Source: the human T2T-CHM13v2.0 reference genome, Homo sapiens | NCBI RefSeq assembly: GCF_009914755.1 | Contig: NC_060937.1 | Direction: 5' to 3' (one strand) | Length of the DNA stretch: 64,000 nucleotides | The notes under the pieces: generated by a model | What the model was told of the DNA's origin: nothing | The model's input: the letters and a program-made list of their open reading frames with translations, nothing else | Database searches by the model: none | In this document: in pieces, positions 4,561-52,860 of the stretch | How the letters are laid out: every line of letters starts with the position of its first letter | Numbering within the stretch: position 1 is the stretch's first letter | Made by a program: the position numbers and the translations under genes

Positions 4561-4616
4561 AATTTCTGTTTTTAATACAATTTTTTTTAAATATGAGGAA
4601 TTAACTAGGTTTAGTC

Positions 4617-4747
4617 AGTGTTTCTCTAAACTTATTCTGAAAATCACTACTCAGAATCATCTGGAGGGGCAGGTGCTTATAAAAATGCAGACTCCTAACC
4701 CCACCTCAGACCAAGTAGGACCCCTGAGACTGGGGTCACAAAGTGTG

Positions 4748-4803
<56 letters not shown>

Positions 4804-15668: not shown

Positions 15669-15949
15669 GTGACTACATCACATGGCCTCTGACACTCGCC
15701 GGACTCCTTAGAAGGGAGCTCAGGAGAAAGGGGAAACACAGGGCAGCTGGGTTCACTGGGATTAGGAATAGAAGCAGCGTGCTGGGCATCTAAGGGCAAA
15801 GATGAAGCTGGGTATGTAATCTACCCAGGAGCCTCTGTGTAAAATATGAAAGAAGAAAGACATGCCAGGGAAAGGGTGGAGCCGGCTAAAGGCCATGGGA
15901 AGTTGGACATGATGGCGTGGGAGAAAGTAACTTTAAGAAGGATGCATTG

Positions 15950-17167: not shown

Positions 17168-17443
<276 letters not shown>

Positions 17444-17789
17444 TTAATTCCACTTTATAAAGTGAATCTTTCTTGGAGGGAACATGTGACGGAACTAGCC
17501 ATCAGGTAAACCTCATTATAAATTAGTCTATTGGAGATTGGAAAGATCTTGAAAAGAGACATGAGAAAGGTGCACCTTTATGCACCTGGGCAGATTCCTG
17601 CCTCACAGCGCCTCATTTTCCTGTAGAAAAGTGGGAAGGATGACTATCTCACAAAGGTTGAAGATCAAAATCCAAAGGAGATGATGAATGGGACAGTGCT
17701 TCATCAAACTTGGATGCGCTAACCAAAGGTCAAGGCTATTATGGTTTTAACAGCAGCAGAGGAAAGAGGAGGCTGGAGAGAGGAGAATG

Positions 17790-18186
17790 AGCCTGGGAGT
17801 TCCACACCAGCCTGAGCAACATAACATAGAGACCTTGTCTCTACAAAAAAATTAAAAAATTATCTGGGCACGGTGGTGCACACCTGTGGTCTCAGTTTCT
17901 TGGGAGGCTGAGGTGGGAGGATTGCTTGAGCTCATGAGATTGAAGCTGCAGTGAACCATGATCACGTCACTGCACTCCAGCCTGGGTGATAGAGTGAGAA
18001 CGTGCCTCCAAAAAAAAAAAAAAAAGAATAACCAAGTTTAACAATTTCTGTGGGGTCTTCATGTAAAGTCTTCATATAAAACTTAAATACATTTATATGC
18101 TTTTCTCTTGTTAATCTGTCTTTTGTTACAGGGGCCTCAGCCATGAACCTAGGATGGGTAGAGAAAGATATTTTTCTTCCCCTACA
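17790..18186 (+). mobile_element. 5'-truncated AluJ (to 18025) followed by the 3' end of a MER39/MER34-like LTR (18030-18186)
   Basis: LTR end tgcttttctcttgttaatctgtcttttgttacaggggcctcagccatg...cccctaca resembles the reverse complement of 5830-5950. Confidence 0.8.
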
Positions 18187-18249
18187 CCTGTGTTCCACCT
18201 ATTCATTCCTCCCTTCCTTCTCTCCTCTACTCTCACTGATTTTTTGGTT

Positions 18250-21162
<2,913 letters not shown>

Positions 21163-21164
21163 CA

Positions 21165-21555
21165 ATGTAATTTTTTGATATTGGATAATGCAATGTGTCT
21201 ACATTTAAAAGGTCTCTCTATACTATTGAACTAAATTTTCCAACTGACCAATGAATGATGTTATAAAATCATGCATGGGCAAAAGAGTCCTTCAAAGTGC
21301 AAGATAGACCAACGAGTTTTAATGTAACAGAGTATAAAAAGTTCATTCATATAGTTTCTTTTTCTTCTTTTTTAGCTTCTACCTTGCTTGCTCTAATATA
21401 TAGTTTAGTATCAAAAAAGTTTAGTATCCAAAAAGAATACCCAGATTTATCTGAAAAGACTATTACAAATTATTCTTTCACAATCACCTATTTGTGTGAG
21501 GCTGGATTTTCTTCATGTACTTTAACCTGAACAACAGATTATAACGGATTGTGAA
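21165..21555 (+). mobile_element. Charlie1-like hAT transposon fragment (transposase C-terminus)
   Basis: ORF 21297-21530 contains EYPDLSEK...TYLCEAGFSS, the hAT dimerisation-domain motif. Confidence 0.8.
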
Positions 21556-21587
21556 AACAAGGTATTGTAATGTTGAAGAAGGCAACA

Positions 21588-21867
21588 TTACATGCCTGTA
21601 ATCCCAGCACTTTGGAAGGCTGAGATGGGTGGATCACCGGAGGTCAGGAGTTCAAGACCACTCTGGCCAACATAATGAAACCCCGTCTCTACTAAAAATA
21701 CAAAATCAGCCAGGCATGGTGGTGCATGCCTGTAATCCCAGCTACTCAGGAGACTGAGATAGGAGAATGACTTGAACCGGGAGGTAAAGTTTGCAGTGAG
21801 CCAAGATCATGCCATTGTACTCCAGCTAGGGCAACAAGAGTGAAACTCCACCTCAAAAAAAAAAAAA
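21588..21867 (+). mobile_element. AluS-like SINE
   Basis: Sense dimer with A tail. Confidence 0.95.
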
Positions 21868-21969
21868 CGTAAATAAATAAAAGTAAGACTTAAAAAACCC
21901 TTGCCTAAAAAGTGTTGTCAAATAGAAACTAACAATTTATTCTCATCTTTCTGTAATGCCACATGGCTC

Positions 21970-21970
21970 G

Positions 21971-22014
<44 letters not shown>

Positions 22015-22021
22015 TGTGTGT
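21970..22021. repeat. (TG)n microsatellite
   Basis: Seen directly. Confidence 0.97.
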
Positions 22022-24230
22022 CCATTCATTCTTTTGCCCTTGTTATCTTATTACTAGGCATATAGTCTAAGAAACAGATTCTAAGGAATACTAAAAGACC
22101 AATAGGAAATTCAAACAAATATGTTTATCATAGCACAATTCATAATAGTGAAAAATTGAAGCAACCCAAGTAACCAATGAATAGCAAATGTCAAGCAGAC
22201 AATAGTACATCAGTATAATAAAACACAAAGTAACCATGAATATGGAAGTCTACAGATGATATTTAAAAAATAAGCACACATAATAGTTCATAGTATAATC
22301 ATTGATTATTCTAACACTATAAAAATTCATGTTTGAATATAGATCAGAATGAGAAATATTTTAGTTAAGTAGATGTTTTTTTTCCTTAAAGTAGTTATGT
22401 GCACATTAACATTTATAAATGACAGACAACCAGTGCAAGAATATTAAATTCTGGATACCAGAAGGGCACACAAACAGGCAAGGTGAACCATTTTAGTGTT
22501 GGCGGAGGCCTCTCTGTCTCCACTTTGGCCTCCCATTTCCTCAAAGTCTGGCCAGGGGGAGTAGGAGGGCAGTGCAGTTGTGGGGGTCGACAGGCAAAGG
22601 CACTGACTGGGGTCCATGAAGAGGAGCAGCAGAAGTTGGGGCACCAGCCAGGGATGCTTGGTTGACTTGGCAGTACATCAGACTTCATCTGGTCTCCCTG
22701 CTTCTTCTTGGATTGGCGGGGCATAGGGGTTTGCAATCCAACCCAACCAGATTAATCACACATTTATTGAGTGCCTACTGTGTACCAGGTACTCTACTAG
22801 GCCTTGGAACCAAAGGTTGACTAAGACATGGGCCCTGCCCATAAGCAGCTCTCAATCTAGACGAACATAGCCAGATATCAGGCAATCTCTATGAGCCGTG
22901 AGTGCCTGAAATGGGCAGGCACTGATATTTTTAGATACTTGAAGACAAGACATCCTGAAAACCCCCACTGATGAATAAGTTTCAAAATTTTTAGAATAAT
23001 TGACTCAAGCTGCTCACAGGTGGCCCTGCATCTGTGTCTCAGTGACTCACTCCATTCCAGAGCACCTCGGATGGAAGCCTTTGAAGAGGCTCAGAAGGGG
23101 GAAAAGACCAATGCAAACCAAAACAGCAACAACATAAACAGGGCAGCTTCGTCACAAATTGTATGACCTTTTGGAGGAAGATGAATGAAAATAATTCTGT
23201 TTCTGAAGGGAAATGTGATGATTTGTCTTAAAATTGTTGTTCATCCTGCAACAACAAAAAAATGAAGATAGTGCCAATGAAACTATTTCAAGGTCATCTT
23301 TGGGAGCCTAAAAATTGATGCACAAGCATGGAAGCACACAGAGCAAGGAGAGAAGTCTGGGTTTTAAGCTCTTCTCTACTAACTAGCTGTGTGGCCTGGG
23401 GGAGCCACTTCCTCAATTCCCTGTTGTCAAATATTATCTTCCTCACTGGAGAATTGTGAGAATACATAATATGGGATTGTGAACTGTAAAACAGAACAAA
23501 AGTGTAGAATGGCCATTGCAGTAGCAGAGCCTATAAAGTGTTCTGTAGTGATGATAAAAGCAATGGTCATCTTTCCAATGCTGTTTTTCCTAAGACTCCT
23601 TGCATGCTGTTACATAAAATAGCTCAAACCAAGCACAAAGCTTTCAGTAAGCATTTTGGACTCTGCCCTAAATTCTAATTAATCCTGAGTCTTGGCACTT
23701 GGAGGGAGTGATTCCAAGTTTTCTGGGTGAAAAGTAGAACAAACTCATTAGCAAGTGCCAGATATGGTCCTCAACCCCGTCTGGTGTGGTTTGCTAGAGG
23801 GCGCTGATGATATTTCTGGTGTGTTTGATACTATGAAGAGAGTTGTCATTAGGAACTCCTGCCCAGGTAACAGAGGCTGACACCTGGAATGCAGATGCAA
23901 CAGGAAAGATGAAGGCGGGATGAGGTGGTGTTGGAGGGATGGGCCATGCTAGTGACTCACTCACTCTGACATCCTTAGCAACCTGGGACATCCCAGTGAG
24001 GGCAATAGCTGCCTGGGGTCTCCCAGCCCCTCAGTGTTGTAAATAATGCCACAGGTCTCTGAGGAGGAGCGGGGAGGGGAGGGTAAGGACTGTCGAAGCA
24101 AACTGAGAAGTCAGGAGCTTGTCCCCGTGCCGACTCCTCTGTCCATGCTGGCCTAGACACCCACAGCCTTCCATGGGGCAAAGGTTCTAGAACCAGGAGT
24201 GTGGCAGCTTTGAGCTCAAACCTTCTACTG

Positions 24231-24309
24231 GTGTGTGCGTGTGTGTGTTTTGTGTGTGTGTGTGTGTGTGTGTGCATGCGTGCACGCACGTGCATGTGCA
24301 CGTGTGTGT
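24231..24309. repeat. Alternating purine-pyrimidine tract, (TG)n/(CA,CG)
   Basis: ...tgtgtgcatgcgtgcacgcacgtgcatgtgcacgtgtgtg. Confidence 0.95.
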
Positions 24310-25078
24310 AGGGGCCTGGTACTCACGGGAATCCAGTTAGGAGACTAGGCATTGGCTGAGAGGAGCTCCAGAGTGAGGTCAGCATGCCCAGTCTGCCCAG
24401 GGTGGGCAGAGGTTTCAACAGGCTGGGCAGCAGCCTGAGAGCCTGGCAACAAGTCCTGACGGGGAACAAGTCCAGATGCGGCTCCAGAACAGGCCCTGAG
24501 ACCTGGGCCAGGCTGAGAGGGGAGACGGGAGAGGTCCTCTTTCTATTCAAGATAATTTATAAATTTCCAAATTCTTGACCGCATCATTCCAGTTGTAATG
24601 TGCATGCCCCCAGAAGGTGCTTAAGGTGGTGTTCTTCAAGGGACAGCCCCCAGATGCAAGCATCAGAAGCACCCGGATAACCCCGATTAAAATGTCTACT
24701 TTGATTTTGAGGGTGTAGGGTGGGGCTCAAGCATGCGCACTTTAAACAGGGACTCCAAATGCTTCTTTTTGCATAAAGACTCCCCCTGCAGATAAATATC
24801 TTAAATGTCAAGACAGGAAGATGGGCAGATATTTTTTGACCTAGCTTTTCAGTATTCCTCAAGTTACACTATATTAGTTGTTTACTCCATCAAACCTTGA
24901 GAGAAAAATATGTTTGAGCATGGTAGAGAGTTGCATAACATTTCTCATTTCCTTTTCCCTTCTCATATTCAGTGCAATTCCTGATTTTCCAGTGAGAATT
25001 CCTAGCTTGGAGTCATGGATATCACCTGCCCCACCTCCGTCATCTCCCAGCAGGAAACAGAAACTTCATCATCAAGCA

Positions 25079-26244
<1,166 letters not shown>

Positions 26245-26949
26245 ACAGAGTAATGTGGGATATATGAGAAAAGAAAAAGTGCGGTAAATGCGACAGTAAG
26301 GAAAATACAAGATGCCTTGGGGAAATTCCTGGGAGGATGGTCAGATCCAGACTTAGGCCAGGGTCAGATCCAGAATTTAGCCTTCCTGGAGGAGCTGAAA
26401 TCTAAGCTTGGACATGAAGCATCAGAAACAGCTAACAGGATAAAGAGGGAAGGGACCAAGTGTCCAGGCAAAAGGAATAACATCCTGACAGTTAGGAATG
26501 ATTTTAGATTCAAGTAAGAGTATATCGCATTGATTAAAAGTGACTTGAAGCAGTTGGAGTCTATTTTCATCACATCCTAAGGAGGTGGCATAGGAAACTT
26601 CTGGCCTTGGTTCAGCAGACTGATGTCAGGTGGCACCCCTGTGATTCTCTTGGCATGTTCCTTACAGTCACAAGATAGCTATTCCTGCCTGATTATCATT
26701 TCTGTGTTCAAGGCACAAAAAATCAGGGAAAGTTATTAGCAATGTCTATCCTTTTAATCAGGAAAGCAAAACCTGTCCTAGAAGCTTCCAGGAGACCATG
26801 GCTTAACTTCCATAGGTTAGACAGTGTCACAAATGGCTCCCTTAGCTTCAAAGAAGGCTGAGAGCAGGAGTGTTTTGCCATCCCAGACACTGTTGTGGAA
26901 GTGGAAGGGAGATAGAAGCTGAGAGTGAATGTATCAGTCCATCAGGGTG

Positions 26950-28966
26950 GCCATAAGCATTGAAAGGGCTGAGTGTGAAGGAAAAAGCCTTGTTTAGTGA
27001 ACTGACAGTGGTTAGTAGAGTCAGAGGATGGACTCAAGTGGGAGAAATGGCAAGTGTAGGGATGGGGTCATGAAGGAGAGATTAACAAGTTTGGATTTTT
27101 ACCTTGAAGACCTCAGAGGATGTCCCAGTTATCTATTGCCATGTAATAAACTACCCCAAACTTAGTGGCACCAAACAGTGACCATTTTGTTATGTGCAGA
27201 TTCTGTGAGTCAGGAATTCTGACAGGCACAGCAGGGATGGCTTGTCCCTGCTATATGGTATGTGGAGCCTTAGCTCAAAGACTGAATGCCTGGACATGGC
27301 TCAAGTGGCTGGGGACAGGGTCATTGAAGACTTCTTTACTCACCTGTCTGGCGCCTGGGCTGGGATGGCCTGAAGGTTGGAATCAACTGGGCTGTGAACT
27401 GGAGACCACCATGTGGCCTCTCCATGAGGTTGACTTGGGCTCCTTCCAGTGTGCTGCTGGGTTCTGAGAGTAAGTGTCTGGAGACTGGGCATATCAAGAG
27501 ACCCAGGCTGAAGCTGCAAGGCTCCTTCCACCCTAGCCTTGGAAGCCACAGAGCACCATTTTGGTTCTGATGCATCCTCTTGGTTATGTGGAAGCCATTC
27601 AGAGGCAGCCCAGATCCAAGAGAAGGTGAATTAGCCTCCACCTCTTGAAGGGGGAGAGGCAAGATGACATTGTAGAGCAGCATGTGGATGGGAGATGTGG
27701 CAGCCATATTTTGAAAAGCCCATATGCCCTCAGGGGTGACTGAAAGGTTTTAGGCAAGGGTAATAAGTTTAGACTGTGCTTTTAGAAAAATCATAATGTC
27801 TGTAGTTTGAGAACTAGTTGGAATGGTCAAAGACTGTAGGTGGGGAGATGTGGTAGGAGGTTGGCCTCAGTAAATATGGTAGGTGTTGCATCTGGACAGC
27901 CTGGAGAGCTATTTTGCAGGTGGAATCACCAGGACTTAGGACTAAGTAAATGAGAGGTTTGAGGGAGAGGAGGAGTCAAGGTTCAGGATTAAGCAGCTGG
28001 TAACCGGTGCCTTTAACCAACACAGGCACACAGGAATAGGGCAGATATGGGAGAAGACAGAAGGCTCAATTGTGAACATTTGACTTTTGAGTTTCTGTGA
28101 GACATCCAATAACAGTTTTCTAATCATTGGTTATATGGGTTTAGTGTTCAGAAAAAATTTCTGATCTAGAGATATTGATTTGAAAATCATTAATTTAGAG
28201 TCAGTAATTGAGATGTTGAGAGAAAATGAGATTTACCATGGATAGAGTATAGAATGAATGAGAAAAGAAATGAGGGTAAACAGAATTCTGGGGGGCACCA
28301 ACATTTAAAGTCCAGGGAAAGAAGTCTATAAAGGAGGTAGGTGAGTGGTCAATGAGGTAGAAGAATGTAGTAGGTTGATAATAGCTTCCAAAGATAGGTC
28401 CAAATTCCTAGCATGTTACCTTATTTGAAAATGGGTGTTTGTAGATGTGATTAAGGTAAGGATTTTAAGATGAGGAAACTATCCTGGATTTATGGATAGA
28501 CCCTAAATGCCATGACAAATATCCTTATAAAAGAGAGGCAAGAGGGAGATTAGATATGCACAGAAGAGAAGGTGATGTGAAGACAGGGACAGATTAGAGG
28601 GATGTAGCCACAAGTCAAAAAATGCCTGGGGCTACTAGAAGCAGGAAGAATCAAAGAACAGGTTGTCCCTAGAGCCTTCAGGGGGAAGATGGTCCTGTTG
28701 ACACCTCGATTTCAAACTTTTGACCTCCAGAACTGTAAGAGAATAAACATCTGTTGTTCTAAGCCACTTAGTTTGTGGCAATTTGTTACAGTGCCCCTAG
28801 GAAATTAATGAAGATGGAAATCAGGACCGTGTAATACCATGGAAACCAAGGAAGAGAGGATTTTAAGAGGACGAGTGGTAAATTCATTTAACAAATAGTT
28901 TTGGGAATACTGTATGTAGCAGACCCTGTCCAAGATGCTGAAGATGCTGTCCTCATGAAGCTTACA
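26950..28966. mobile_element. L2 LINE fragments interrupted by MLT1 LTRs (about 27121-27725 minus; about 28367-28810 plus)
   Basis: L2 motifs (gaaaaatcataatgtctg, caccaacatttaaag, ttcatttaacaaata...gaagcttacatt); MLT1 motifs (cctccagaactgtaagagaataaa). Confidence 0.75.
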
Positions 28967-29517
28967 TTTATTATTATTATTATTTTAAAGTGAAAACGAG
29001 CATATTAAGAAATTAAAGGAATAAAAGAATGGCTACTCCACAGGAAGAGCAGCCTTGGGGGCTGCTGGTTGGCTATTTTTTATGGTTATTTCTTGATTAA
29101 ATGCTAAACAAGGAGTGGATTATTCATGAGTGTTCACAGAAAAGGGTGGACAATTCCTGGAACTAAGGGTTCCCCCAACCTTTTAGACCATATCGGGTAA
29201 CTTATGGCATTTGTAAATTGTTATGGCACTGGTGGGAGTGTCTTTTAGCAAGCTAATGCATTATAATTAGCGTATAATGAGCAGTGAGGACGACCAGAGG
29301 TCTTTCATTACCATCTTAGTTTTGGTGGGTTTTGGCCGGCTTCTTTACCACAGTCTGTTTTATCAGCAAGGCCTTTGTGAGCTTACCTTGTGCCAGCCTA
29401 TCTCATCCTGTGACTTAGAATGCCTAACCTCCTGAGAATGCAGCCCAGTAGGTCTCAGCCTCATTTTACCCAGCCGCTATTCAAAATGGCATCACTGTGG
29501 TTCAAACACCTCTGACA
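28967..29517 (-). mobile_element. MER41B-type 3' LTR truncated just past its polyA-signal position and ending in an (AAT)n tail
   Basis: Homologous to 7200-7750 but has the extra GAS-containing segment; lacks about 85 bp of U5; tttattattattattatttt at 28967-28986. Confidence 0.88.
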
Positions 29518-31648
29518 TATTTCCCCCTTCCCTTTTACAAGGGAACCCTTAATCCTAAGGGTTGTAGAGAGACAAAGATCCATCTTCTGTAACTTCTTCA
29601 GGCTAGAGAGGGGTGATGATATTCCTGCCTAACTGTTAGGGTCTCTTGTATTCAGGGTAGAGAGGAGCTCAGTCAGAAAGCATGGGTGTGTCGAGGACTG
29701 CTCATAACTCTTGAGTTCCAACAAAAGGTGATATCTGGAAGATTAATAATTGTCCAATTTAAGAGAACATTGAGTAAGCTTATCCTGCATTCCTACACAT
29801 AGAGTACAGCAGCAATATATTTTACAAGAGTAAAGCAAAATAAGTAAAACTATCCCAAATAAACTAAATAAGAACGCTTTCCATGAACTGGGTAACTGTT
29901 GGAACCAAGCTGATATGGGGTTGCTAGCTGATTCCAATATGTGTCCAGAATTAGAACACTAATCCAAATTGTTACATTACCAATTCCTCTGACTTATTCT
30001 GAGCTGCAGTCAGAGATCACTGATTGGTTCACAGGAATAAGCAGGGTCAGTCTAAATTGCAGGAAAAAACAGAAAAACAACTAATTGGACTATAATCTAA
30101 TAACAAGTGTACCATAGTTTTTGAAATGTATTTTTCCTCTCTTCAGTCTTCCATTTTTACTAAAGACACATCATGGTAAGATCAGTTTGCTTTATTATTC
30201 TTGGCCTGATTATTTGCATAAAGTGCAGCAAAAATAAGTATTTTTCACATAAGCTTTTAAAATGAGCTTTGATGAAACTTTGTTCCATAGAGGAATCACA
30301 AATAAAGACTTTTTTTTGAGAGGTGCAGTCTTGGCTCACTGCAACCTCTGCCTCTCGGGTTCAAGTGATTCTTCTGCCTCAGCCTCCCGTAGGTGGGATT
30401 ACAGGCACCCACCACCATGCCTGGCTACTTTTTTGTATTTTTAGTAGAGATGGGGTTTTGCCATGTTGGGCAGGCTGGTCTCAAGCTCCTTATCTCAGGT
30501 GATCTGCCTGCCTCAGCCTCCCAAAGTGCTGGGATTACAGGTATGAGCCACTGCGCCTGGCCAAAGACTTTTTTTTTTTTAAAGCTGAGCCCACCATGGG
30601 TTTGTACCATAAATTCCTCTGCCCTTGAGGTCCCAAGATAACTGGGACTTTCAGAAAGTGACATTCTTTAATTATCACAGTTCAGAAAGCCTGTACAGAG
30701 ACTGTGCAGACAGGTATGAGGCCAGGTTTCCCAAGGGGCTTTTATTGGCTCTATAAGTCAAATTTGATTCCTTAAAGAAAAGTATACCATTACAGGAAAA
30801 GCCTTGCTAAAATAACCAGTTTCTCAATTGTGTCCTATTGCAAAAGAAAACAGATTCTTACTGCATTTATGTAATTAACTATATTGCCATAAGTTAAGAA
30901 TACTCACAAATAGTTTTTAAATTCTGAAGAAATCAGGTAGAGAGAAAGAAATATGCTCCAAATTTTGTTCACTCAATTGTTAAAAGCTGTCAGTAGCTCA
31001 AAAGAAAAGTTTCCTTGACTCTGAAAAACAAAATGAAGGATCAGCAATGTTTAAAGCAAAAAGTCAAAAAGATTACTTCAGTCTTCCATTAGTTCAGTCC
31101 ATACAGTTAACTCCTGTTCTGCTTGACATTCATAAGTATTACAGTTCTCCATGAGAGTCCTCAAAATTTTTTCTCCATTCTAATGTCACAATCTCCAAAG
31201 TTATCAGAAACCTGCTTTAAGAACACCTGTTAAAGTCCTATAGCTGTCTTTAAACCACCTTTTAAAGAGGATTACAACAAGACAACAATTGTGGATGACA
31301 CAACATCTTAGTTAGGACAGCCAATATTAAAGCCATAAATGACAAGAAAATTTTGGTTACTTCTGTGGCATACAACAATTTTACATAACAATCATAAACA
31401 TTAATAACATACACTAAGTCATATCAGAATTATAGGAATTTCCCATAATTTTGGAACACACACCAATAACATATGTATACAAATAAACCCCAAAGAAAGC
31501 CTAACACCATTTCATATTTGACAATGTGTTTCATATTTGACAATGTTTCCTGTATGATTTTATGCCAAATAAGCCAAATATGTCATTTTTGTACTTTAGG
31601 GGACTTAATACCTAAAAGATTAATTAGGTCAGAAAAGACAAAATTTAT
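29518..31648 (-). mobile_element. MER41/MER4-group ERV internal sequence, 3' part (polypurine tract, env TM remnant), with an Alu at about 30310-30562
   Basis: Polypurine tract aaaagggaagggggaaata abuts the LTR; ORF 29743-29937 reads WFQQLPSSWKAFLFSLFGIVLLILL...CCC; Alu TSD aaagacttttttt. Confidence 0.8.
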
Positions 31649-38575
<6,927 letters not shown>

Positions 38576-38599
38576 CTGCCTTTTCTTTCTATAATTCTT

Positions 38600-38915
38600 T
38601 TATGAGCTAAATGATAGGCAATTTCCCCCACAGTCTAGGGCTTGTTTCACATTCTCCTAACAGAACATTTTGAAGAGGTTATGTTCTTAATTTTAACCAT
38701 GTCCAATTCATATTTTTTCTTTTATAGACTCTGTTTTCTAAAAAATATTTGCATAACCCAAAGTCACAAAAGTTTTTCCTTTCTTTTTTTCTAAAAGATA
38801 TAAATTTCTAGGTTTTACATTTAAGTTTATGATCTACTTGCGTTAGTTTTTGTATATAGTGTGAGGTGTGCCTTGAATTTTTCTTTCTTTTCTTGCTTAA
38901 GGATATGCAACTCAT
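38600..38915 (-). mobile_element. Old L1M fragment
   Basis: ttctaggttttacatttaagtttatgatctac...tttttgtatatagtgtgagg. Confidence 0.65.
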
Positions 38916-39352
38916 TTCTATTTTTTTAAAATAATAAAGACACTATTATTTAAAAGAAGAATAAATATTTATGCAAACTGTGAAAGTGGAGGATATGCCT
39001 GCCTCCTGTTCCCAGGGAGAAGGCAGAAGTGGGCGGGCAGGGGAAAGGTAAGGGTTTTGAGAGCAACACGGTCTCTTCAGTGTGGGCTCCACAGGCTAAG
39101 GAGAGGCGGGGCTGGGGCTGGCAGAGCAGTAAGCTGAGACAGTGGGAAGTGCCCTGGTGGGGTCAGTGGCTCCTGTGGGGGTAAAACAAGGGTCAATAGG
39201 ATGAAGCAGTCTGGAGGCTCAGGAGAAGGTGGCAGGGCCCTGACTCTGAGCCCGGCTGCAGGCTGGGTGTGCTCAGAGGTGCATGGTCTCCCCTGGGCGG
39301 CTCCTTGGTGTGTAGGAAGGCCCAAGACACCGAGACATTGCTGCACCTACTC

Positions 39353-40096
39353 CTAGAGCTCCCGCGGTGGCTCTGCGACTGGGCTGTGGCCGGGGTACTT
39401 CCTGCAGTAGGGCAGGCGGCAGGCTGGGGGAAGGCTGCTTCTCCTGGAAGACACTGTTGCTGGAGAGTGGAGGCTTCTTCTGAGCGGCCCAGGCCTGGAC
39501 ACAAAGGCGGGGACCTCTCCATGTCTCCTGATGGGCTTGAAAGCTGATAGCCTGGGTGACGGGCTCTGCTTGGTGTCTGGGACCTCAAACCAGAGTGGCT
39601 CGTCGAATTTCCTTTTTCCCTTGTTGCACTGGCTGAGGGCCTTCAGCATGGTCTCCCTGGCCCAGGGAGCTGGGGCCTCGGGGGGAGGTGACGCTTGTAT
39701 AGGCTCCCCTCTGTGCTCCGGCGGGGCGATTTTCACGGTCACCAGGCTGCGGACGGGCCGGGGGTGCTGGGCCTTCCAAAACCACCGCTTCATGTAGGCC
39801 AGGTGAGCCTCGGAAAAGTCTGGCCCAGTGAGGCTTAGGAGTGGTGGCCTGTTGGGAAAGCACCTCCAGGCCTCTGGGACCATCTCTCTCCGGGTGCGGG
39901 CATAGTCCCAATCGAGAGGAGCGGTGGGGAGGGGCCGGGTGTGGACCCCGAGCTTCCCATGGACGTAGACAACTTTGCAGCAGTCCTGGACCTGGGAGCG
40001 GAGGACCGGCCTGGACGGCGGGGACCGGTGCTTCTGGGCTCGGGGCAGCACCCTGGCCCGGGGCCAGCCCAGGAACCAGCTCAGGTAGTTGCCCAT
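39353..40096 (-). CDS. Intronless POM121-like (POM121L12-type) retrocopy with an intact 247-aa ORF; may be a retrogene or an annotated pseudogene
   Basis: Family motifs SLVTVKIAPPE, ARETMLKALSQCNKGKRKFDEPLWFEV and SAFKPIRRHGEVPAFVSRPGPL; Kozak GTCATGG; MGNYLS start; in-frame upstream ATG at 40228; no introns. Confidence 0.8.
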   Translation of the reverse strand: MGNYLSWFLGWPRARVLPRAQKHRSPPSRPVLRSQVQDCCKVVYVHGKLGVHTRPLPTAPLDWDYARTRREMVPEAWRCFPNRPPLLSLTGPDFSEAHLAYMKRWFWKAQHPRPVRSLVTVKIAPPEHRGEPIQASPPPEAPAPWARETMLKALSQCNKGKRKFDEPLWFEVPDTKQSPSPRLSAFKPIRRHGEVPAFVSRPGPLRRSLHSPATVSSRRSSLPPACRLPYCRKYPGHSPVAEPPREL

Positions 40097-40345
40097 GACA
40101 GCAGTGCAATGGTCGGGACCTTCTGTTAGAAATTCGGCTTCCAGAAGTTTCCGAAGTCTGCCGCCAGGGCCAAGTGTGCTGAGCTTGGTGACCGCTGGCC
40201 TCAGGACGCTACAAAGCGCGCAAAACATCGCGCGTTGGGCACCCTCTGGCCATAGGGTCCCGCACGGGCCAGGACGGCACCTCGTGGAATCGGGGACGTC
40301 ACAGGGCGCAGCTGCAGTGGGGGAGGGCAGCACCCAGACGATCTG
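39650..40345 (-). promoter_or_regulatory. CpG island over the POM121L 5' region with a CRE-like site
   Basis: High GC and dense CpG; TGACGTCC on the minus strand at about 40294-40301, ~200 bp upstream of the ATG. Confidence 0.65.
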
Positions 40346-40799
40346 GGAGACCAGGGAAGCTCAAGCCTCCGTCCTTCCCACTGATGGTCCCAGTCACTTG
40401 GCTCTGAGCAGAGGGGCCCAGCAGCTGCCTCTACTTTTGTGCCTGACCTTTCAAGGTAGAAGATAGAATTTCTGCCAGGTCCTGAAAACTGCAGATGCCT
40501 GTTGACAGAAGGGTGCTGTCTTTGATCAGTGTGAAAATGAACACAATACACTTGGATGCTCTTTCAAGGAAAAACAAATCATTTACTCATATCAGTAAAG
40601 GTGATGTGTGTTTCATTCTTCTAGGATGGATGTTAATGTCACTTTTTGCAATTTTGCTCTTAAGAAAATGGAGTCATCAAGTTTTGTTTTAGGACTGGCA
40701 ATGTTGATTTTATGTGGATTTCCTATAATTTCCAGCCTTCGTATATCCATGAATAGATTGTCTATCTCTGAACATTAATGTCATTTCTCTCCTTTTGCT

Positions 40800-43578
40800 T
40801 AATTTATTTTTAAGAATTATTTCAGTAGTCTTTTGGGGAAAAGGTGATGTTTGGTTACACATGTAAGTTATTTAGTTGTGATTTCTGAGGTTTTGGTGCA
40901 CCCTTTGCCCCATCAGTGTACCCTGCACCCAATGTGTAGTCTTTCATCCCTCTCTCACCTCCCATCCATTCCCCCAAGTCCCCAAAGTGCATTGAATCAT
41001 TCTTATGCCTTTGCATCCTCATAGCTTAGCTCCCACTTATGAGTGAGAGCATACGATGTTTAGTTTTCCATTCCTGAGTTACTTCACTTAGAATAATGGT
41101 CTCCAACTTCATCCAGGTTGCTGCGAATGCCATTATTTCATTCATTTTTAAGGCCATTTAGTATTCCATAGTACGTTTGTACCAAATTTTCTTTATCCAT
41201 TCATACGTTGATGGGCATTTGGGCTGATGCCATAGTTTTGCAATTGCTATTTCTGCTGCTATAAATGTGTGTGTGCAAGTATCTTTTTCATATAATGACT
41301 TCTTTCCTCTGGGTAGGTACCGAGTAGTGGCATTGCTGGATCAAATGGTAGTTCTACTTTTAGTTCTTTAAGGAGTCTCCACACTGTTTTCCATAGTGGT
41401 TTGTACTAGTTTACATTCCCACCAGCAGTATACCAGTGTTTCCTTTTCACCACATCCATACCAACATCTATTTTTTTTTATTATGGCCATTCTTGCAGGA
41501 GTAATGTGGTATCACATTATGGTTTTTATTTGCATCTCCCTGATGATTAGTGATGATGAGCATTTTTTCTTATGTTTGTTGGCTATTTGTATATTTGAGA
41601 ATTACAAATTGTCTATTTATGTCTTTAGCCCACTTTTTGAATGGGATTATTTGTTTTTTTCTTGCTAATTTGTTTGAGTTCCTCATAGATTCTGGATATT
41701 ATTCCTTTGTCAGATGGATAGTTTGTGAAGATTTTCTCCCACTCTGTGGGTTGTCTGTTTATCTGCTGATTATTGCTTTTACTGTGCAGAAGCTTTTAGT
41801 TTAATTAAGTCCCAGCTATTTATCTCTGGTTTTATTGCATTTGCTTTTGGGTTCGTGGTTATAAAATCTTTGCCTAAGCCAGTGTCTAGAAGGGTTTTTC
41901 CGATGTTCTAGAATTTTTATGGTTTCAGGTCTTAGATTTAAGTCTTTGATCCATCTTGAGTTGATTTTTATATAAGGTGAGAGATGAGGATCCTGTTTCA
42001 TTCTTCTGCATGTGGCTTGCCAATTATCCCAGCACCATTTGTTGAATAGGGTGTCCTTTCTCCACTTTACGTTTTTGTTTGCGTTGTTGAAGATCAGTTT
42101 GCTCTAGGTATATGGCTTTATTTCTGGGTTCTCTATTCTGTTCCATTGGTCTAGGAGCCTATTTTCATACCAGCACCATGCTGTTTTGGTGACTATAGCC
42201 TTATAACATAGTTTGAAGTCAGGTAATGTGCTGCCTCAAGATGTGTTCTTTTGCTTAGCCTTGCTTTGGCTATGAGAACTCTTTTTTGGTTCTATATGAA
42301 TTTTAGAATTGTTTTTTCTAGTTCTGTGAAGAATGATGGTGGTATTTTGATGGGAATTGCATTGAATTTGTAGATTGCTTTTAGCAGTGTGGTCATTTTC
42401 ACAATACTGATTCTACCCATCCATGAGCATGGCATGTGTTTCCATTTGTTTGTGTCATCTGTGATTTTTTTCGGCAATATTTTGCAGTTTTCTTTGTAGG
42501 GGTCTTTCACTTCCTTGGTTAGGTGTAATATACTCCTAAGTGTTTTTTGTTTGTTTGTTTGCTTTGCAGCTATTGTAAAAGGGCTTGAGTTCTTGATTTG
42601 ATTCTCAGCTTGGTTGCTGTTGGTGTATAGCAGTGCTACTGATTTGTGTATATTGAGTTTGTATCCTGAATTCATTTGTCAGTTTGCTGAATTCATTTAT
42701 CAGTTCTAGGAGCTTTTAGGATGAGGCTTTAAGGTTTTCTAGGTATACCATTATATCAATGGTGAACAGCAACAGTTTGACTTCCTCTTTACTGATTTGG
42801 ATGCCCTTTATTTCTTTCTCTTGTCTAATTGCTCTGGCTAGGACTTCCAGTACTACGTTGAATAGAAGTGGTGAAAGTGGGCATCCTTGACTTGTTCCAG
42901 TTCTCAGAGGGAATGCTTTCAACTTGTCCCCATTCAGTGTAATGTTGGCTGTGGGATTGTCATAGATGGCTTTTATTATCTTAAAGTATCTCCTTTCTAT
43001 GCTGATTTTGCTGAGGGATGCTGGATTTTGTCAAATGCTTTTTCTGTGTCTATTGAGATGATCATGTTATTTTTGTTTTTAATCCTGTTTATGTGGTGTA
43101 TCACATTTACTGACTTGCGTATGTTAAACCATCTTGCATCCCTAGTATGAAACCCACTTGATCATGGTAGATTATCTTTTTTGTATGCTGTTGGATTCCA
43201 TTAGCTAGTAATTTGTTGAGGATTTTTGCAACCATGTTCATTGAGGATATTCGTCTGTAATTTTCTTTTTTTGTGATGCGCCTTTCTGGTTTTAGTATTA
43301 GGGTGATACTGGCTTCATAGAATGATGTAGGGAGGGTTGCCTCTTTCTCTATTTTTTGAAATAGTCTCAATAGATTGGTACAATTCTTCTTTGAATGTCT
43401 CACAGAATTCAACTGTGAACTTGTCTGGTCCTGGAATTTTTCTTGTTGGCATTTTCTTTTTTAAATTACTATTTCAATCTTGCTGCTTATTACTGGTCTA
43501 TTCAGAGTTTTAATTTCTTCCTGGTTTAATCTAGGAAGGTTGTATATTTCCAGGAATTTATCCATCTCCTCTAGGTTT
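40800..43578 (-). mobile_element. L1PB-like LINE, 3' half
   Basis: Distinct older 3' UTR (ggtgatgtttggttacac...ttttggtgcaccc); ORF2 RT remnants such as [21 protein letters not shown]. Confidence 0.88.
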
Positions 43579-45882
43579 TCTTTCCATGTTTAGTGCTTCC
43601 TTCAGGAGCTCTTGTAAGGCAGGCCTGGTGGTGATAAAATCTCTTAGCATTTGCTTGTCTGTAAAGGATTTTATTTCTCCTTCGCTTATGAAGCTTAATT
43701 TGGCTGGATATGAAATTCTGGGTTGAAAATTATTTCCTTTAAGAATGTTGGATATTGGTCCCCACTCTCTTCTGGCTTGTAGGGTTTCTGCAGAGAGATC
43801 TGCTGTTAGTCTGATGGGTTTCCCTTTGTGGGTAACCTGACCTTTCTCTCTGGCTGCCCTTAATATTTTTTCCTTCATTTCAACCTTGGTAAATCTGATG
43901 ATTATGTGTCTTGGGGTTGCTCTTCTTGAGGAATATCTCTGTGGTGTTCTCTGTATTCCCTGTACTTGAATGTTGTCCTGTCTTGCTAGGTTGGGGAAGT
44001 TCTCCTGGATAATATCCTGAAGAGTGTTTTCCAACTTGGTTCCATTCTCCCTGTCATTTTCAGGTACACCTATCAAATGTAGATTTGGTCTTTTTACATA
44101 GTCCCATATTTCTTGGAGGTTTTGTTCATTCCTTCTTATTCTTTTTTCTCTAATCTTTATTTCAATCTCGCTTTATTTCATTAAGTTGATCTTCAATCTC
44201 CGACATCCTTTTTTTCCGCTTGATCAATTCGGCTATTTATACTTGTGTATGCTTCACGAAGTTCTTGTACTGTGTTTTTCAGCTCCATCAGGTCATTTAT
44301 GTTCTTCTCTAAACTGGTTTTCTAGTTAGCAATTCATCTAACCTTTTTTCAAGGTTCTTAGCTCCCTTGCATTGGGTTAGATCATGCTCCTTTAGCTGGG
44401 AGTAGTTTGTTATTACCCACCTTCTGAAGCCTACTTCTGTAAATTCTTCAAACTCATTCTCCATCCAGTTTTGTTCTGTTGCTGGGGAGTTGTGATCCTT
44501 TGGAGGAGAAGAGGCATTCTGATTTTTGGAATTTTCAGCCTTTTTGCTCTGGTTTCTCAACATCTTTGTGGATTCATCTACTTTGGTCTTTGATGTTGGT
44601 TATCTTTGAATGGGGTCTTTGAGTGGTTGTGCTATTCCTTTCTGTTTGTTAGTTTTTCTTCTAACAGTCAGGTCCCTCTGCTGCAGGTCTGCTGGAGTTT
44701 GCTGGAGGTCCACTCCAGACCCTGTTTTCCTGGGTATCACCAGCAGAGGCTGCAGAACAGCAAAGATTGCTGCCTGTTCTTTCCTCTGGAAGCTTCATCC
44801 CAGAGGGGCACCTGCCAGATGCCAGCCTGAGCTCTCCTGTATGAGGTGTCTGTCGGCCCCTACTGGGAGGTGTCTCCCATTCAGGATACACGGGGGCCAG
44901 GGACCCACTTGAGGAGGCAGTCTGACCATTAGCAGAGCTCGAACGCTGTGCTGGGAGGTCCGCCGCCCTCTTCAGAGCCATCATGCAGGGACGTTTAAGT
45001 CTGCTGAAGCTGTGCCCACAGCCACCCCTTCCCTCAGGTGCTCTGTCCCAGGGAGATGGGGGTTTTATCTGTAAGTCCCTCACTGGGGCTGCTGCCTTTT
45101 TTTCAGAGATGCCCTGTCCAGAGAGGAGAAGTCTAGCAGTCTGGCCACAGTGGCCTTGCTGAGCAGCAGTGAGCTCGGCCCAGTTCAAACTTCCCAATGG
45201 CTTTGTTTACACTGTGAGGGTAAAACCGCCTACTCAAGCCTCAGCAATGGCGGACACCCCTCCCCACACCAAGCTCGAGCATCCCAGGTGGATCTCAGAC
45301 TGCTGCTCCACTGGGAGCAAGAATTTCAAGCCAGTGGATCTTCGTTTGCTGGGCTCTGTGGGGGTGGGACCTGCCAAGCCGCATCACTTGGCTCCCTGGC
45401 TTCAGCACCCCTTTCCAGGGGAGTGAACAGTTCTGTCTCTCTGGAGTTCCAGGCACCACTGGGGTATGGCAAAAAGAAAACCCTGAAGCTAGTTTGATGT
45501 CTGCCCAGATGGCCTCCCAGTATTGTGCTTGAAACCCAGGGCCCTGGTGGGGTAGGCACCAGAGGGAATCTCCTGGTCTGCAGGTTACGAAGACCACTGG
45601 AAAAGTGCAGTATCTGGGGCAGAATGCATGGTTCCTCTGGCTCAGTCCCTCATGGCTTCCCTTGGGTAGGGGAGAAAATTCCCTGACCGCTTCACTTCCC
45701 GAGTGAGGCAATGCCCCACCCTGCTTCGGCTTGCCCTCCATGGGCTGCACCTGCTGTCCGACCAGTCCCAGTGAGATGAACCGCGTACCTCAGTTGGAAA
45801 TGCAGAAATCACCTGCCTTCTGTGTTGATCTCGCTGGGAGCTGCAGACCGCAGCTGTTCCTATTCGGCTATCTTGCCAGCCA
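43579..45882 (-). mobile_element. L1PA7-like 5' UTR plus ORF1 only
   Basis: 172-aa ORF1 C-terminal fragment (43558-44076); 5' UTR ends tcttgccagcca. Confidence 0.92.
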
Positions 45883-50873
<4,991 letters not shown>

Positions 50874-52860
50874 AAAGACATAATTTATAATTTGATTTTG
50901 GAAAGTTTGTCAAATCTCAAATGTTTAAATGCTTTATATTTTAAAGTAGAATTTCAGGTTACCGTAAGACATTCATTTAGCCAAAACGATAACTTAAAAT
51001 TTTTTCAAAGGCAAAAAACTTTAGTCATTAATAGAGGGAAGACAGCTTTCAAGTTTTATGTCTCTTTTCTTTCCCTTCTTTTTTCTACAGTTTATTCAAA
51101 AGGCAAACAAAAATCTTTCTTTTTTTTTGATATTACATGAAAATCTTGTTCAAGAGAGAAAGCCAAATCTCATCCTTGCATTAGTGTGCTATTGATTTCA
51201 AAACCAGTTCTTAATAAAACCTTATAGACAAATCTATCCAATCTTAATCGGTTTGACCATAAGGTAAGACACCATAAACCTTTTGTACCCCTTTTCAAAT
51301 TTTTGTGAAAGAGAAGATCAGTGCTCTATGAAAAACCCATTGTGCTTTTATTCCAATGTTCAATTTATGGAAAAGCTGAATAATACCCCTTTAACTTCAG
51401 CCTGTATGTTCACACACAGAATTTATTTTACAAGATTAATTTTTCGCAAACCTTCCACAATGTGCTCAAACCTTCAGCTTTATCTTATCTAACTTAAAAC
51501 AATTCTTTAACCCTTTAATCTAGGCAAAAGAAAAAAAATCCACATTCCCATGGCATGTTATAATCTTTTACCAAAAACACATTTCGCTTCCCTTATACAC
51601 TCTGCATGTAAAACTTTTCTTATTTCCCAAAGATTACTTAAGTCACATGAACTAAAAGGCATTACACTTTTTACTTTTCTGACAAAATATTTGATTTAAG
51701 CACTTATTATTTTTAAACCAATTAATCAAAGCTCTTTCTTACTACACACACAACACACATAAATACACAGACAGAAGATCCAGTGCTTGTAAGATTTTTC
51801 ATTTGCCAGTTTCTTAATTGGATTACTGGCTTCAGGGTGGAGCCCTTGGAGGAACAGGGCCAGGAAAGCATGTAGTTTCTATGGTCTAATTAGCAGGCAC
51901 AATTGGAATGCGAAAACAGAGCCCCAAAATTAAGGGTTCCATTTTAATACCGAATCCTGGATCCCTCAAAGAGAAATGCTACAGAACAACAATCCCATGA
52001 TTTGACCGTGCATTTCATTGCAAAGCAACCCAAAGCCCATCAGCCCATTCTGTGATTAGCCCATCCCCCATGGGAGTCTTATCTCTCAGTTGGGGGTGGG
52101 GGGAGTGGAGACCTTTCCATAACTTCCAGGTGACCAAGAGGATGCTTCTCTGATCCAAACATGCAAAGAGCCGAGTATCCCCCCATAACTGCCATTAGCT
52201 ATCCCCAAAACTATATTTCCTACATAGTTATTAGACACCAAAGCTCTCTCATAATGCGAAGTAATTTCTGATACCCCCAAAAGTCAAAACCATCAGTTAA
52301 TGCAGTGCAGAACAGAACAGAACCTTAGATTTTGAGAGGGCTCGATCCACTTTTAATTAAGTTGACCTTTAACCATCGCGCTTTTTAAAGAAAAAAAAAG
52401 TTTTTAGATCTCTTATTACCCAATTTTAACCATGCCAAACTGCCAATATTTCTGATTTTTAAACTTTACCAAAGGTTAACTCCCAGGTGAAACCAGTAAA
52501 TCTGAACGAAGGCTATGACTTAACCACGAATGCACCAGGTCAAGCTCCCAAGGACATAAAACAAGAAGAGAGGGAAACTTCATCCAGTTTTTTTCGTTTG
52601 TTTCGGGGACCTCCTACCAGGAGTTTCACCATGTGGTCTCTGGGCAAGACAGTCGCCCTGAGTAACAGAAAAGATAGGAAAGGGAAAGGAGAGAAAGAGA
52701 GAGAAAGCATTACCTGTGGTGAGGTGGGGAAGGCGAGCAGCTCAGGGAGGCCAGAGAAAGACCCACCCATTGCAGCAACACTGAAAAGTTCAGGTGGCCG
52801 CTTGTCAGTCGTGAAGGGATCTTTTCCAGCAGTCCCATCTGCTCTCAAGTTTCCCCTTTT
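50874..52860 (-). mobile_element. MER41/MER4-group ERV internal sequence, 5' part; no 5' LTR
   Basis: Continues 29518-31648 across the L1 TSD; leader-like region with splice donor CAG|GTAATG at about 52713 (minus). Confidence 0.75.

What the first reader, a model, noticed from the sequence alone, without database searches (positions are those of the whole stretch)
31634..50888. A 19.2-kb 'L1' bounded by one TSD: a LINE-1 holding about 9 kb of foreign DNA, including a POM121L ORF
Seen: aaagacaaaatttat (31634-31648) precedes the L1 A-rich tail, and aaagacataatttat (50874-50888) follows the last L1 5' end. This is a 15-bp TSD with one mismatch, and MER41-internal sequence resumes on both sides. 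So the 3' end at 31649 and the 5' end at 50873 belong to one original insertion, yet they are 19.2 kb apart instead of about 6.5 kb. Between them lie a different L1 5' end (38575), an old L1M piece, the POM121L ORF, an L1PB half and another L1PA 5' UTR/ORF1. All are on the minus strand, and some appear older than the host L1. Inference: the segment from about 37000 to 45882 was imported from another locus in one event. The left junction used L1-L1 homology in ORF1, and the right junction was non-homologous and returned to an earlier point in the host L1. This is gene delivery into an L1 used as a landing pad, and it is neither classical 3' transduction nor simple NAHR.
Basis: partly seen in the sequence, partly recalled or inferred. 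Interest (0 to 1): 0.85.

Follow-up and report, generated by a model that had tools for sequence, protein, structure and literature searches.

The report
Ancient L1 split by copied DNA
One old LINE-1 insertion on human chromosome 13 was later split by about 12 kb of extra DNA: a copy of a nearby repeated segment carrying a dead POM121-like gene, a piece of another LINE-1, and a second copy of part of itself, which makes it an intricate but ordinary scar of DNA-break repair.

Summary
The 15-bp duplication (31634-31648 / 50874-50888, 14 of 15 identical) brackets one LINE-1 insertion. In 5 of 5 other genomic copies of the flanking repeat that appeared in both flank searches, the two flanks abut and the 15-mer occurs once.

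Inside, 33629-38573 and 45883-50873 overlap. Left of about 36.7 kb they are duplicates of the host L1, with the same two Alus, the same Alu target duplications and shared private substitutions. Right of it they are different L1s: K2P 0.105 versus 0.193.

The stretch from about 36.7 to 43.578 kb copies a chr13 segment that has three more copies 0.26-0.56 Mb distal. These keep the same order, L1 5' end, old-L1 fragment, POM121L-like unit, older L1. The left junction lies in L1 ORF1. The piece 43579-45882 is a separate L1 fragment, not a copy of the donor's L1.

The best reading is a copy-paste repair primed by L1-L1 homology that rejoined non-homologously further back in the host L1. The POM121L-like frame is open only here and shows no sign of constraint. 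This is a new member of a known kind, of modest interest.

The parts
31634..31648 (.). Left copy of the 15-bp target-site duplication of the host L1
31649..33628 (-). Host L1 3' end (poly-A, 3' UTR, end of ORF2), present once. It lacks about 140-170 bp at 33397-33413 relative to other L1s.
33629..36692 (-). Copy 'A' of host L1 positions 1981 to about 4431 (my L1 numbering, counted from the 3' end), duplicated at 45883 to about 48985. It includes Alu1 (35353-35645, TSD CAACCCCTGC) and Alu2 (36153-36452, TSD AAGAATGTTGA).
   Evidence: Both Alus sit at the same sites with the same TSDs. There are 16 shared derived states in positions 1981-4202, against 2-4 for control pairs. K2P is 0.105.
36693..36786 (-). 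Interval holding the homologous host-L1/donor-L1 junction, inside the ORF1 RBD-like domain
   Evidence: The last host-private state shared by A and B before the switch is at L1 position 4431. The first marker where A no longer follows the host is at 4524; A has a gap at 4496. One isolated shared state lies at 4668. Pfam Transposase_22 matches at E 2.3e-48 on 36433-36807 minus.
36787..38573 (-). 5' part (ORF1, 5' UTR) of the donor L1 (D-L1), imported
   Evidence: It has 5 of 5 donor-lineage markers. Its 5' end and the junction with the old-L1 fragment (ccatcttgccagcca|ctctgcc) are shared with paralogs P2 and P4. K2P to the host copy is 0.193.
38574..38905 (-). Fragment of an old L1 (the donor L1's original target), imported
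38906..40809 (-). POM121L-like unit. It has an open frame at 39353-40360 (335 codons stop to stop). RefSeq POM121L13P lies at 39798-40177.
40810..43578 (-). 3' half of an older L1 ('O'), imported. It is truncated here but continues in all three paralogs.
43579..45882 (-). 'C': the 5' 2.3 kb of another L1 of the same subfamily. It lacks a 3' end and poly-A and has an empty Alu2 site. Its 3' junction has about 7 bp of microhomology (GGTT..TTC). Its 5' terminus abuts the host L1 with 0-1 bp of microhomology.
   Evidence: Neither junction recurs among the 40 scored genome hits of each search.
45883..50873 (-). Host L1 5' 5 kb ('B'), with Alu1 (47648-47938) and Alu2 (48440-48731), up to its true 5' end
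50874..50888 (.). Right copy of the 15-bp target-site duplication

Best explanation
A full-length L1 that already carried an Alu in ORF1 inserted by ordinary target-primed reverse transcription into an interspersed repeat, making the 15-bp duplication. By the time of the next event it also carried a second Alu.

Later, about 20-30 Myr ago by divergence, a free DNA 3' end inside this host L1 paired with a similar L1 (D-L1) of a paralogous segment a few hundred kb distal on the same chromosome. It was extended on that template for about 6.9 kb: through the rest of D-L1, the old-L1 fragment next to it, a POM121L-like pseudogene and half of an older L1. This was copy-paste, because the donor family is still in place.

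The new strand was then joined back to the host L1 without homology, about 2.5 kb 'behind' the point where it had left. As a result about 3.1 kb of the host L1, both Alus included, now occurs twice.

The right-hand join is occupied by a 2.3-kb 5' fragment of a third L1 (C). Either it patched the gap in the same repair, or it is a later L1 insertion whose 3' part was lost in a microhomology deletion.

Shown: one original insertion; duplication of host DNA; donor family and donor order; the homologous left junction in ORF1; micro- or no homology at the two right junctions; C is not a copy of D-L1.

Inferred: the break and invasion mechanism (BIR / SDSA with coupled end joining, or MMBIR-type template switching), the number of events, and the date.
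For: 1. One insertion: the TSD and the flank continuity, 5 of 5 shared loci.

2. Duplicated host DNA: A and B share Alu1 and Alu2 at identical sites with identical TSDs. They share 16 derived states in L1 positions 1981-4202, against 2-4 for five control pairs. They share 9 more in 4032-4668, of which another Alu2-bearing L1 on chr3 shares only 1 of 9, so these are host-private.

3. Switch point: A-B K2P is 0.105 (n=3033) left of 36.69 kb and 0.193 (n=1748) right of 36.79 kb.

4. Donor: the unique 1.9 kb at 38900-40800 has three chr13 paralogs at 87-91% identity. Window 38809-43581 aligns to P2 at 89.4% over 4852 columns. The layouts agree, and the L1|old-L1 junction is shared with P2 and P4. 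In P2 the donor L1 sits between the two halves of one old L1 with its own short duplication, so P2 looks ancestral.

5. Same age: W-P2 K2P in the imported unique and older-L1 part is 0.092, against A-B 0.105.

6. Right junctions: about 7 bp of microhomology at 43579 and 0-1 bp at 45883.

7. The strand polarity fits. On the + strand the path host, D-L1, U, O, C (antisense L1) runs 5' to 3' throughout, read directly.

8. Literature: the review PMC7407515 (passages read) states that BIR tracts reach about 10 kb in mammalian cells and that poor homology at the second end shifts repair from gene conversion to BIR.
Against: - No orthologous pre-event allele could be examined, so neither the order nor the number of events is shown.
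- The four segment copies are almost equidistant (K2P 0.089-0.108; informative splits 34/22/16), so the direct donor cannot be named.
- In the L1 5' part, distances are star-like. An unrelated chr11 L1 is closer to every copy (10.4-12.5%) than the copies are to each other (12.4-16.1%). The assignment of 36787-38573 to the donor therefore rests on 5 markers plus the shared flank junction, not on overall similarity. A genome-wide nearest-neighbour search could not recover the paralogs even for this positive control.
- One host-type state at L1 position 4668 lies beyond the proposed junction.
- C ends within 0-3 bp of a natural L1 5' terminus. That is a coincidence under pure DNA template switching and suggests an L1 insertion or RNA step.
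- The host's 5' part shares 22 derived states with an L1 5' part (E) at paralog P4 that has no Alu2. The chr3 Alu2-bearing L1 shares only 2 of the 9 testable ones. I cannot explain this.
Confidence: 0.7

Rival explanations
1. C (43579-45882) is a later, classical full-length L1 insertion into the right-hand host copy at 45883. A deletion with about 7 bp of microhomology then removed its 3' 4 kb together with the rest of the older L1 and the original right junction of the import. That makes three events: import, insertion, deletion.
For: - C ends at a natural L1 5' terminus directly on host DNA.
- The 16 bases after it (AATGCTTCCAGCTTTT) end in TTTT, a plausible endonuclease site and TSD length (read).
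- C lacks 2 of 5 donor markers plus 3 more, so it is a separate element.
- The 43579 junction has about 7 bp of microhomology.
- In all three paralogs the older L1 continues beyond the point where it stops here.
Against: - The left TSD copy and the poly-A would have been deleted, so nothing direct remains.
- C's terminal branch (0.072) is as long as that of the imported L1 part (0.075), so it is not visibly younger than the import.
- It needs two further events.
Confidence: 0.4
2. C is an L1 RNA-templated patch made in the same repair, like endonuclease-independent L1 insertion at breaks. The growing + strand end in the older L1 annealed by about 7 nt to an L1 RNA and was reverse-transcribed to the RNA's 5' end. 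It was then end-joined to, or switched back to, the host L1 at 45883.
For: - C is 3'-truncated without poly-A, is complete at the 5' terminus, has microhomology at its 3' junction and almost none at the 5' junction.
- It is antisense on the strand being extended, which is the right polarity.
- It comes from a different, then-active source of the same subfamily.
- Its branch length equals that of the import.
- Sen et al. 2007 (PMC1920257; abstract and section 11 read) describe 21 such insertions. Fifteen of them carry 4-312 bp of extra non-L1 DNA, some copied from elsewhere.
Against: - The known cases carry at most 312 bp of extra DNA, not 6.9 kb.
- There is no way here to show that C and the import are simultaneous.
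- The candidate 16-bp TSD ending in TTTT favours a classical insertion.
Confidence: 0.3
3. The whole 19.2 kb is one retrotransposition. Either reverse transcriptase jumped between several RNAs, or a 19-kb read-through transcript was copied, which would explain the single TSD, the poly-A end and the L1 5' end.
For: - There is a single TSD with a poly-A at one end and an L1 5' terminus at the other.
- All pieces are in one orientation.
- Internal pieces end at L1 5' termini.
- Paralog P4 is likewise a 19.7-kb composite between a roughly 16-bp duplication.
Against: - The two host copies share host-private substitutions that a sister Alu2-bearing L1 lacks (1 of 9 shared) and diverge abruptly at one point. 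That is the signature of recombination between already inserted DNA.
- The imported block is colinear with genomic paralogs over 4.8 kb, across non-genic DNA and an old L1 truncated only here.
- W and P4 differ in structure, so they are not copies of one RNA.
- No cDNA of this length is known to me (recalled).
Confidence: 0.03
4. Several separate DNA rearrangements produced the structure, with no templated copy-paste primed from the host L1. Examples are unequal crossing-over between the host L1 and the donor L1, followed by re-insertions or deletions, or later gene conversion between paralogs.
For: - The left junction is a clean homologous L1-L1 hybrid, as in NAHR.
- Four same-orientation copies within 0.6 Mb give ample substrate.
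- The patchy state at L1 position 4668 could be a conversion tract.
Against: - A crossover between the host L1 and a distal donor L1 would delete or tandemly duplicate the 0.26-0.56 Mb between them. Both loci and the host's own 5' part with its TSD are still here.
- It needs more steps.
Confidence: 0.12

Closest known systems
Repeat-homology-primed templated insertion or duplication by break-induced replication / SDSA coupled to end joining (MMBIR/FoSTeS-type template switching; Alu-Alu and LINE-LINE mediated rearrangements)
   Same: It is duplicative, with the donor kept on the same chromosome. One junction lies inside a diverged interspersed repeat and the others have 0-7 bp of microhomology. 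The tract of about 7 kb is within the roughly 10 kb quoted for mammalian BIR (PMC7407515, passages read). The return behind the exit point makes a local duplication.
   Different: This case is fixed and ancient rather than a disease CNV. The recipient is the interior of a single L1, so the product looks like one oversized L1 between one TSD. A third L1 fragment sits at the return junction.
Repair of a break in a LINE by gene conversion with other genomic LINEs (Tremblay, Jasin and Chartrand 2000). I saw only the title, in the reference list of PMC7407515. The paper is not held, and its content is recalled.
   Same: An L1 serves as recipient and a diverged L1 elsewhere as template.
Endonuclease-independent (non-classical) L1 insertion at double-strand breaks (Sen et al. 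2007, PMC1920257; abstract and section 11 read)
   Same: Piece C is 3'-truncated, lacks poly-A, has junction microhomology and lies beside DNA copied from elsewhere.
   Different: The co-inserted non-L1 DNA is about 6.9 kb rather than 312 bp or less. A classical insertion plus a deletion explains C equally well.
Interspersed intrachromosomal segmental duplication
   Same: Four same-orientation copies of a 4-20 kb segment lie within 0.6 Mb of chr13q12.3.
   Different: Identity of about 87-91% is at or below the usual 90% cut-off (recalled definition), so standard SD maps may not list it.

Membership tests
Classical L1 insertion (host element) | Poly-A at the 3' end, a 7-20 bp target-site duplication and an intact pre-insertion site | tested here: met
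   A poly-T run starts at 31649. The 15-bp TSD matches at 14 of 15 positions. In 5 of 5 shared loci the flanks abut with the 15-mer present once. The nick site reads ...TTTAT|AA (read).
L1 3' transduction | Extra DNA lies downstream of the L1 3' end, followed by a second poly-A, inside the TSD | tested here: not met
   The extra DNA lies inside the L1, 2 kb upstream of its 3' end.
Simple L1-L1 NAHR | A single hybrid L1 with loss or tandem duplication of the whole interval between the partners | tested here: not met
   A hybrid junction is present. But the host 5' part, its TSD and the 0.26-0.56 Mb up to the paralogs are all retained.
Homology-primed templated insertion (BIR/SDSA with end joining, MMBIR) | The donor is retained (copy-paste) | tested here: met
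   Three paralogs have the same order.
Homology-primed templated insertion (BIR/SDSA with end joining, MMBIR) | The entry junction lies within extended homology and the exit junctions have micro- or no homology | tested here: met
   Entry is at 36693-36786 in L1 ORF1. Exits have about 7 bp at 43579 and 0-1 bp at 45883.
Homology-primed templated insertion (BIR/SDSA with end joining, MMBIR) | All junctions formed in one event | not testable with these tools
   This needs orthologous loci from other primates, and none are held.
Endonuclease-independent L1 insertion (for piece C) | 3' truncation without poly-A, junction microhomology, no TSD | tested here: inconclusive
   Truncation and microhomology are met. 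Absence of a TSD cannot be judged because the left side is not host target DNA. A possible 16-bp TSD ending in TTTT follows the 5' end.
Segmental duplication (1 kb or more at 90% identity or more; definition recalled) | Length and identity | tested here: inconclusive
   89.4% over 4852 columns to P2; 90%, 91% and 87% for the unique part.
POM121 family protein-coding gene | A Pfam POM121 domain above the curated cut-off | tested here: not met
   19.7 bits against a cut-off of 27, E 8.1e-4, residues 266-304 only.
POM121 family protein-coding gene | An open frame under purifying selection | tested here: inconclusive
   The frame is open for 335 codons here only. P2, P3 and P4 have stops or frameshifts. 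Window-private changes are 7 synonymous and 13 non-synonymous, pN/pS 0.65, against 0.56, 2.26 and 0.45 in the disrupted copies, over 169 codons.

The most novel reading that the evidence does not exclude
The 12.25-kb insert was made in one hybrid repair that used both DNA and RNA templates. An end in the host L1 was extended on a diverged L1 0.26-0.56 Mb away for about 7 kb, then on an L1 RNA by reverse transcriptase for 2.3 kb, and then rejoined.

The same duplicon also sits inside a second resident L1: paralog P4 is a 19.7-kb composite between its own roughly 16-bp duplication. So resident L1s would act as preferred landing pads that seed interspersed duplications.
Probability: 0.2. Interest if true: 0.55.

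Novelty: new member of a known kind. Interest (0 to 1): 0.3.

Why it matters
It is a clean, fully resolved example of how homology between dispersed L1s can prime the copying of several kb of unrelated DNA, here a POM121L-like pseudogene, into a new site. This is one way in which interspersed duplications can start.

It also warns that a 'giant L1 between one TSD' is a recombination product, not a giant retrotransposition. It has no evident functional consequence. The carried frame shows no constraint, and the event is old and, as far as I can tell, fixed.

Tried and rejected
- Nearest-neighbour genome searches with the 5' 1.2 kb of C, A and B returned only unrelated L1s at 82-88%. They did not recover the chr13 paralogs even for A, the positive control. 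The test has no power, so 'C has no close paralog' means little.
- I tried to map a host/donor junction in paralog P4's L1 3' part. Informative splits were 11 (host + P4) against 10 (P2 + P4) against 3, which is inconclusive.
- Overall distances and a FastTree of the L1 5' parts are star-like. Only two groupings stand out (P2D+P4D, and B+P4E), so I used counts of shared rare states instead. In one search I ignored the pair P3D-g024 (493 columns) because it reflects shared end gaps. In one search, positions beyond about 5110 for the chr3 copy are end-gap artefacts and were ignored.
- I considered the idea that the two Alus entered the host L1 after insertion. It is rejected for Alu2 and left open for Alu1. 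Three other loci have an Alu at that site, which is compatible with an insertion hot spot. The window's own second copy was not among the 40 scored hits of that search.
- Literature: a search for 'POM121L13P' found 0 papers. Two broader searches and one preprint look-up gave nothing on this locus or on an Alu-bearing L1 lineage. These searches are not exhaustive.
- Pure nested-insertion models are rejected. The old L1 fragments and the unique DNA cannot have retrotransposed into a younger L1, and they are colinear with the paralogs.
Full report
**Observation**

They touch the L1 poly-A end (31649) and an L1 5' end (50873), and 14 of 15 bases agree.

Each flank (31150-31648 and 50874-51372) was searched against the window's genome. 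Both belong to an interspersed repeat (1511 and 1444 first-look candidates, 40 scored each). Five loci appear in both lists, and in all five the two matches abut with a 15-bp overlap. The target was therefore one contiguous repeat copy, and the 19.2 kb lie between the ends of one L1 insertion. The name MER41-int was not tested.

**Anatomy**

A self-comparison and a layout against internal references give the following order. All L1 pieces are on the minus strand.

| Coordinates | Label | Content |
|---|---|---|
| 31649-38573 | A | A complete-looking L1 with Alu1 (35353-35645) and Alu2 (36153-36452) |
| 38574-38905 | U (part) | Fragment of an old L1 |
| 38906-40809 | U (part) | GC-rich unique DNA with a 335-codon open frame on the minus strand |
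| about 40810-43578 | O | 3' half of an older L1 |
| 43579-45882 | C | 5' 2.3 kb of an L1, with an empty Alu2 site |
| 45883-50873 | B | Colinear with 33629-38570 of A, with Alus at the same two places |

**A and B are partly the same DNA**

- Both Alus sit at identical positions with identical target duplications, CAACCCCTGC and AAGAATGTTGA.
- Alu2 turned out not to be private. The L1|Alu2 junction matches over its full length at 38 other loci among the 40 scored. A chr3 copy has the same Alu with the same duplication, but no Alu1. Alu2 therefore came with the host L1. It interrupts the C-terminal dsRBD-like domain of ORF1.
- The duplicate status of A and B rests on more than the Alus. They share 16 rare states in L1 positions 1981-4202, against 2-4 for control pairs.
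- They share 9 more rare states in 4032-4668. The chr3 sister element has only 1 of those 9.
- Beyond about position 4431-4524 (window 36693-36786) the sharing stops. K2P jumps from 0.105 to 0.193.
- That interval lies in the ORF1 RBD-like domain (Pfam Transposase_22, E 2.3e-48).

**Where the rest came from**

- The genome holds three more copies of the unique part, at chr13 28.26, 28.43 and 28.56 Mb (87-91% identity). By the hub's coordinates all three lie inside MTUS2. More distant relatives lie on chrX, chr7, chr6 and chr19.
- In all three chr13 copies the order is Alu-free L1 5' end, POM121L-like unit, older L1. The older L1 runs on beyond the point where it stops in the window.
- The exact junction between the L1 5' end and the old-L1 fragment is shared with P2 and P4.
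- In P2 that L1, with about 1 kb of extra 3' sequence, lies between two abutting halves of one old L1 with a short duplication. P2 therefore looks like the original site.
- At the five positions where the three paralog L1s agree against three other L1s, A (right of the junction) has the paralog state at 5 of 5, and C at 3 of 5. C also lacks three further states that A shares with P2 and P4.
- So 36.7-43.578 kb is a copy of the chr13 segment, entered through L1-L1 homology. C is a different element of the same subfamily.
- The four segment copies are nearly equidistant: K2P 0.089-0.108, non-CpG 0.070-0.084, splits 34/22/16. Window to P2 (0.092) is close to A to B (0.105).
- With recalled neutral rates of 1.5-2.2e-9 per site per year, this is roughly 20-30 Myr. 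It is compatible with the host duplication and the import being one event.

**Right-hand junctions**

- At 43579 the older L1 and C overlap in about 7 bp, GGTT..TTC.
- At 45883, C's natural 5' terminus meets host position 1981 with 0-1 bp of overlap.
- Neither junction recurs among the 40 scored hits of 7443 and 9345 candidates.

**Mechanism**

A crossover with a distal L1 would have removed or duplicated hundreds of kb, and that did not happen. The structure fits a copy-paste repair. A 3' end in the host L1 invaded the diverged donor L1 and was extended for about 6.9 kb. It then returned to the host without homology, 2.5 kb behind its exit, which duplicated 3.1 kb. The + strand polarity is consistent along the whole path.

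C has two readings that I cannot separate:
- A later classical L1 insertion at 45883 (the next 16 bases end in TTTT), followed by a microhomology deletion.
- An L1-RNA-templated patch made during the same repair, as in endonuclease-independent insertions (PMC1920257).

A single giant retrotransposition is disfavoured by the host-private substitutions shared by A and B and by the colinearity with the genomic paralogs.

**The POM121L frame**

- The Pfam match is weak: 19.7 bits against a cut-off of 27.
- The frame is open only in the window copy. P2, P3 and P4 carry stops or frameshifts.
- Window-private changes are 7 synonymous and 13 non-synonymous (pN/pS 0.65), similar to the disrupted copies.
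- I read it as a pseudogene whose frame has survived by chance. The sample is small.

**Limits**

- No primate orthologues and no repeat library were available.
- Only 40 candidates are scored per genome search.
- L1 5' parts are star-like, so similarity searches lack power.
- The 22 states shared by the host 5' part and P4's right-hand L1 remain unexplained.

Noticed in passing
36153-36463 and 48440-48753; L042 (chr3:109876600-109879600): The Alu inside L1 ORF1 (C-terminal dsRBD-like domain) is not a private insertion. The same L1|Alu junction matches over its full length at 38 other loci among the 40 scored, and the chr3 copy has the same 11-bp duplication. This looks like an L1 lineage with a broken ORF1 that was still copied dozens of times. 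I found no description of it in my few searches.
   Followed up: partly
Paralog P4, chr13:28405001-28445000 (L019-L022), offsets 15748-35503: A second 19.7-kb composite (L1, POM121L unit, older L1, L1 5' part) lies between a roughly 16-bp duplication (ctacagtgggtgtacaa / ctcatggctgtacaa) inside an old L1. This mirrors the window. Its left junction could not be mapped.
   Followed up: partly
45883-50873 versus P4 offsets 33196-35510: The host L1 5' part shares 22 rare states (L1 positions 4496-6257) with P4's right-hand L1. That L1 has a different flank and no Alu2, and a sister Alu2-bearing L1 has only 2 of the 9 testable states. The cause could be a common source lineage, old gene conversion between the composites, or a mosaic host L1. 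This is unexplained.
   Followed up: partly
Paralog P2, chr13:28551380-28552560 and 28561440-28562400: The donor L1 seems to sit at its original site. About 1 kb of non-L1 DNA lies beyond its 3' end (a possible 3' transduction), and about 19 nt of extra sequence lie before its 5' end. The two halves of the target old L1 repeat tataattcttt. In the window the corresponding extra 19 nt and repeat are at 38574-38603.
   Followed up: partly
39728-39740: Paralogs P3 and P4 each lost the 3' half of the POM121L unit through different deletions whose right edges lie only 12 bp apart.
   Followed up: no
39353-40360 versus RefSeq 39798-40177: The hub table gives POM121L13P on the + strand. The frame with POM121-family and paralog similarity is on the minus strand.
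   Followed up: no
33397-33413: The host L1 lacks about 140-170 bp that the older L1, the donor L1 and a chr11 L1 all have at this point. The donor L1 in P2 and P4 has a small inverted segment nearby.
   Followed up: no
35353 (Alu1 site): Three other loci (chr2 179.56 Mb, chr14 45.34 Mb, chrY 8.07 Mb) have an Alu at the same L1 site next to an internal A-run. P4's right-hand L1 is truncated at that same run. It is probably an insertion or priming hot spot.
   Followed up: no
chrX:15228338-15231920 and 15283604-15288192 (L005-L008): Two more distant copies (68-74%) of the POM121L-like unit lie 56 kb apart on chrX, both with disrupted frames.
   Followed up: no
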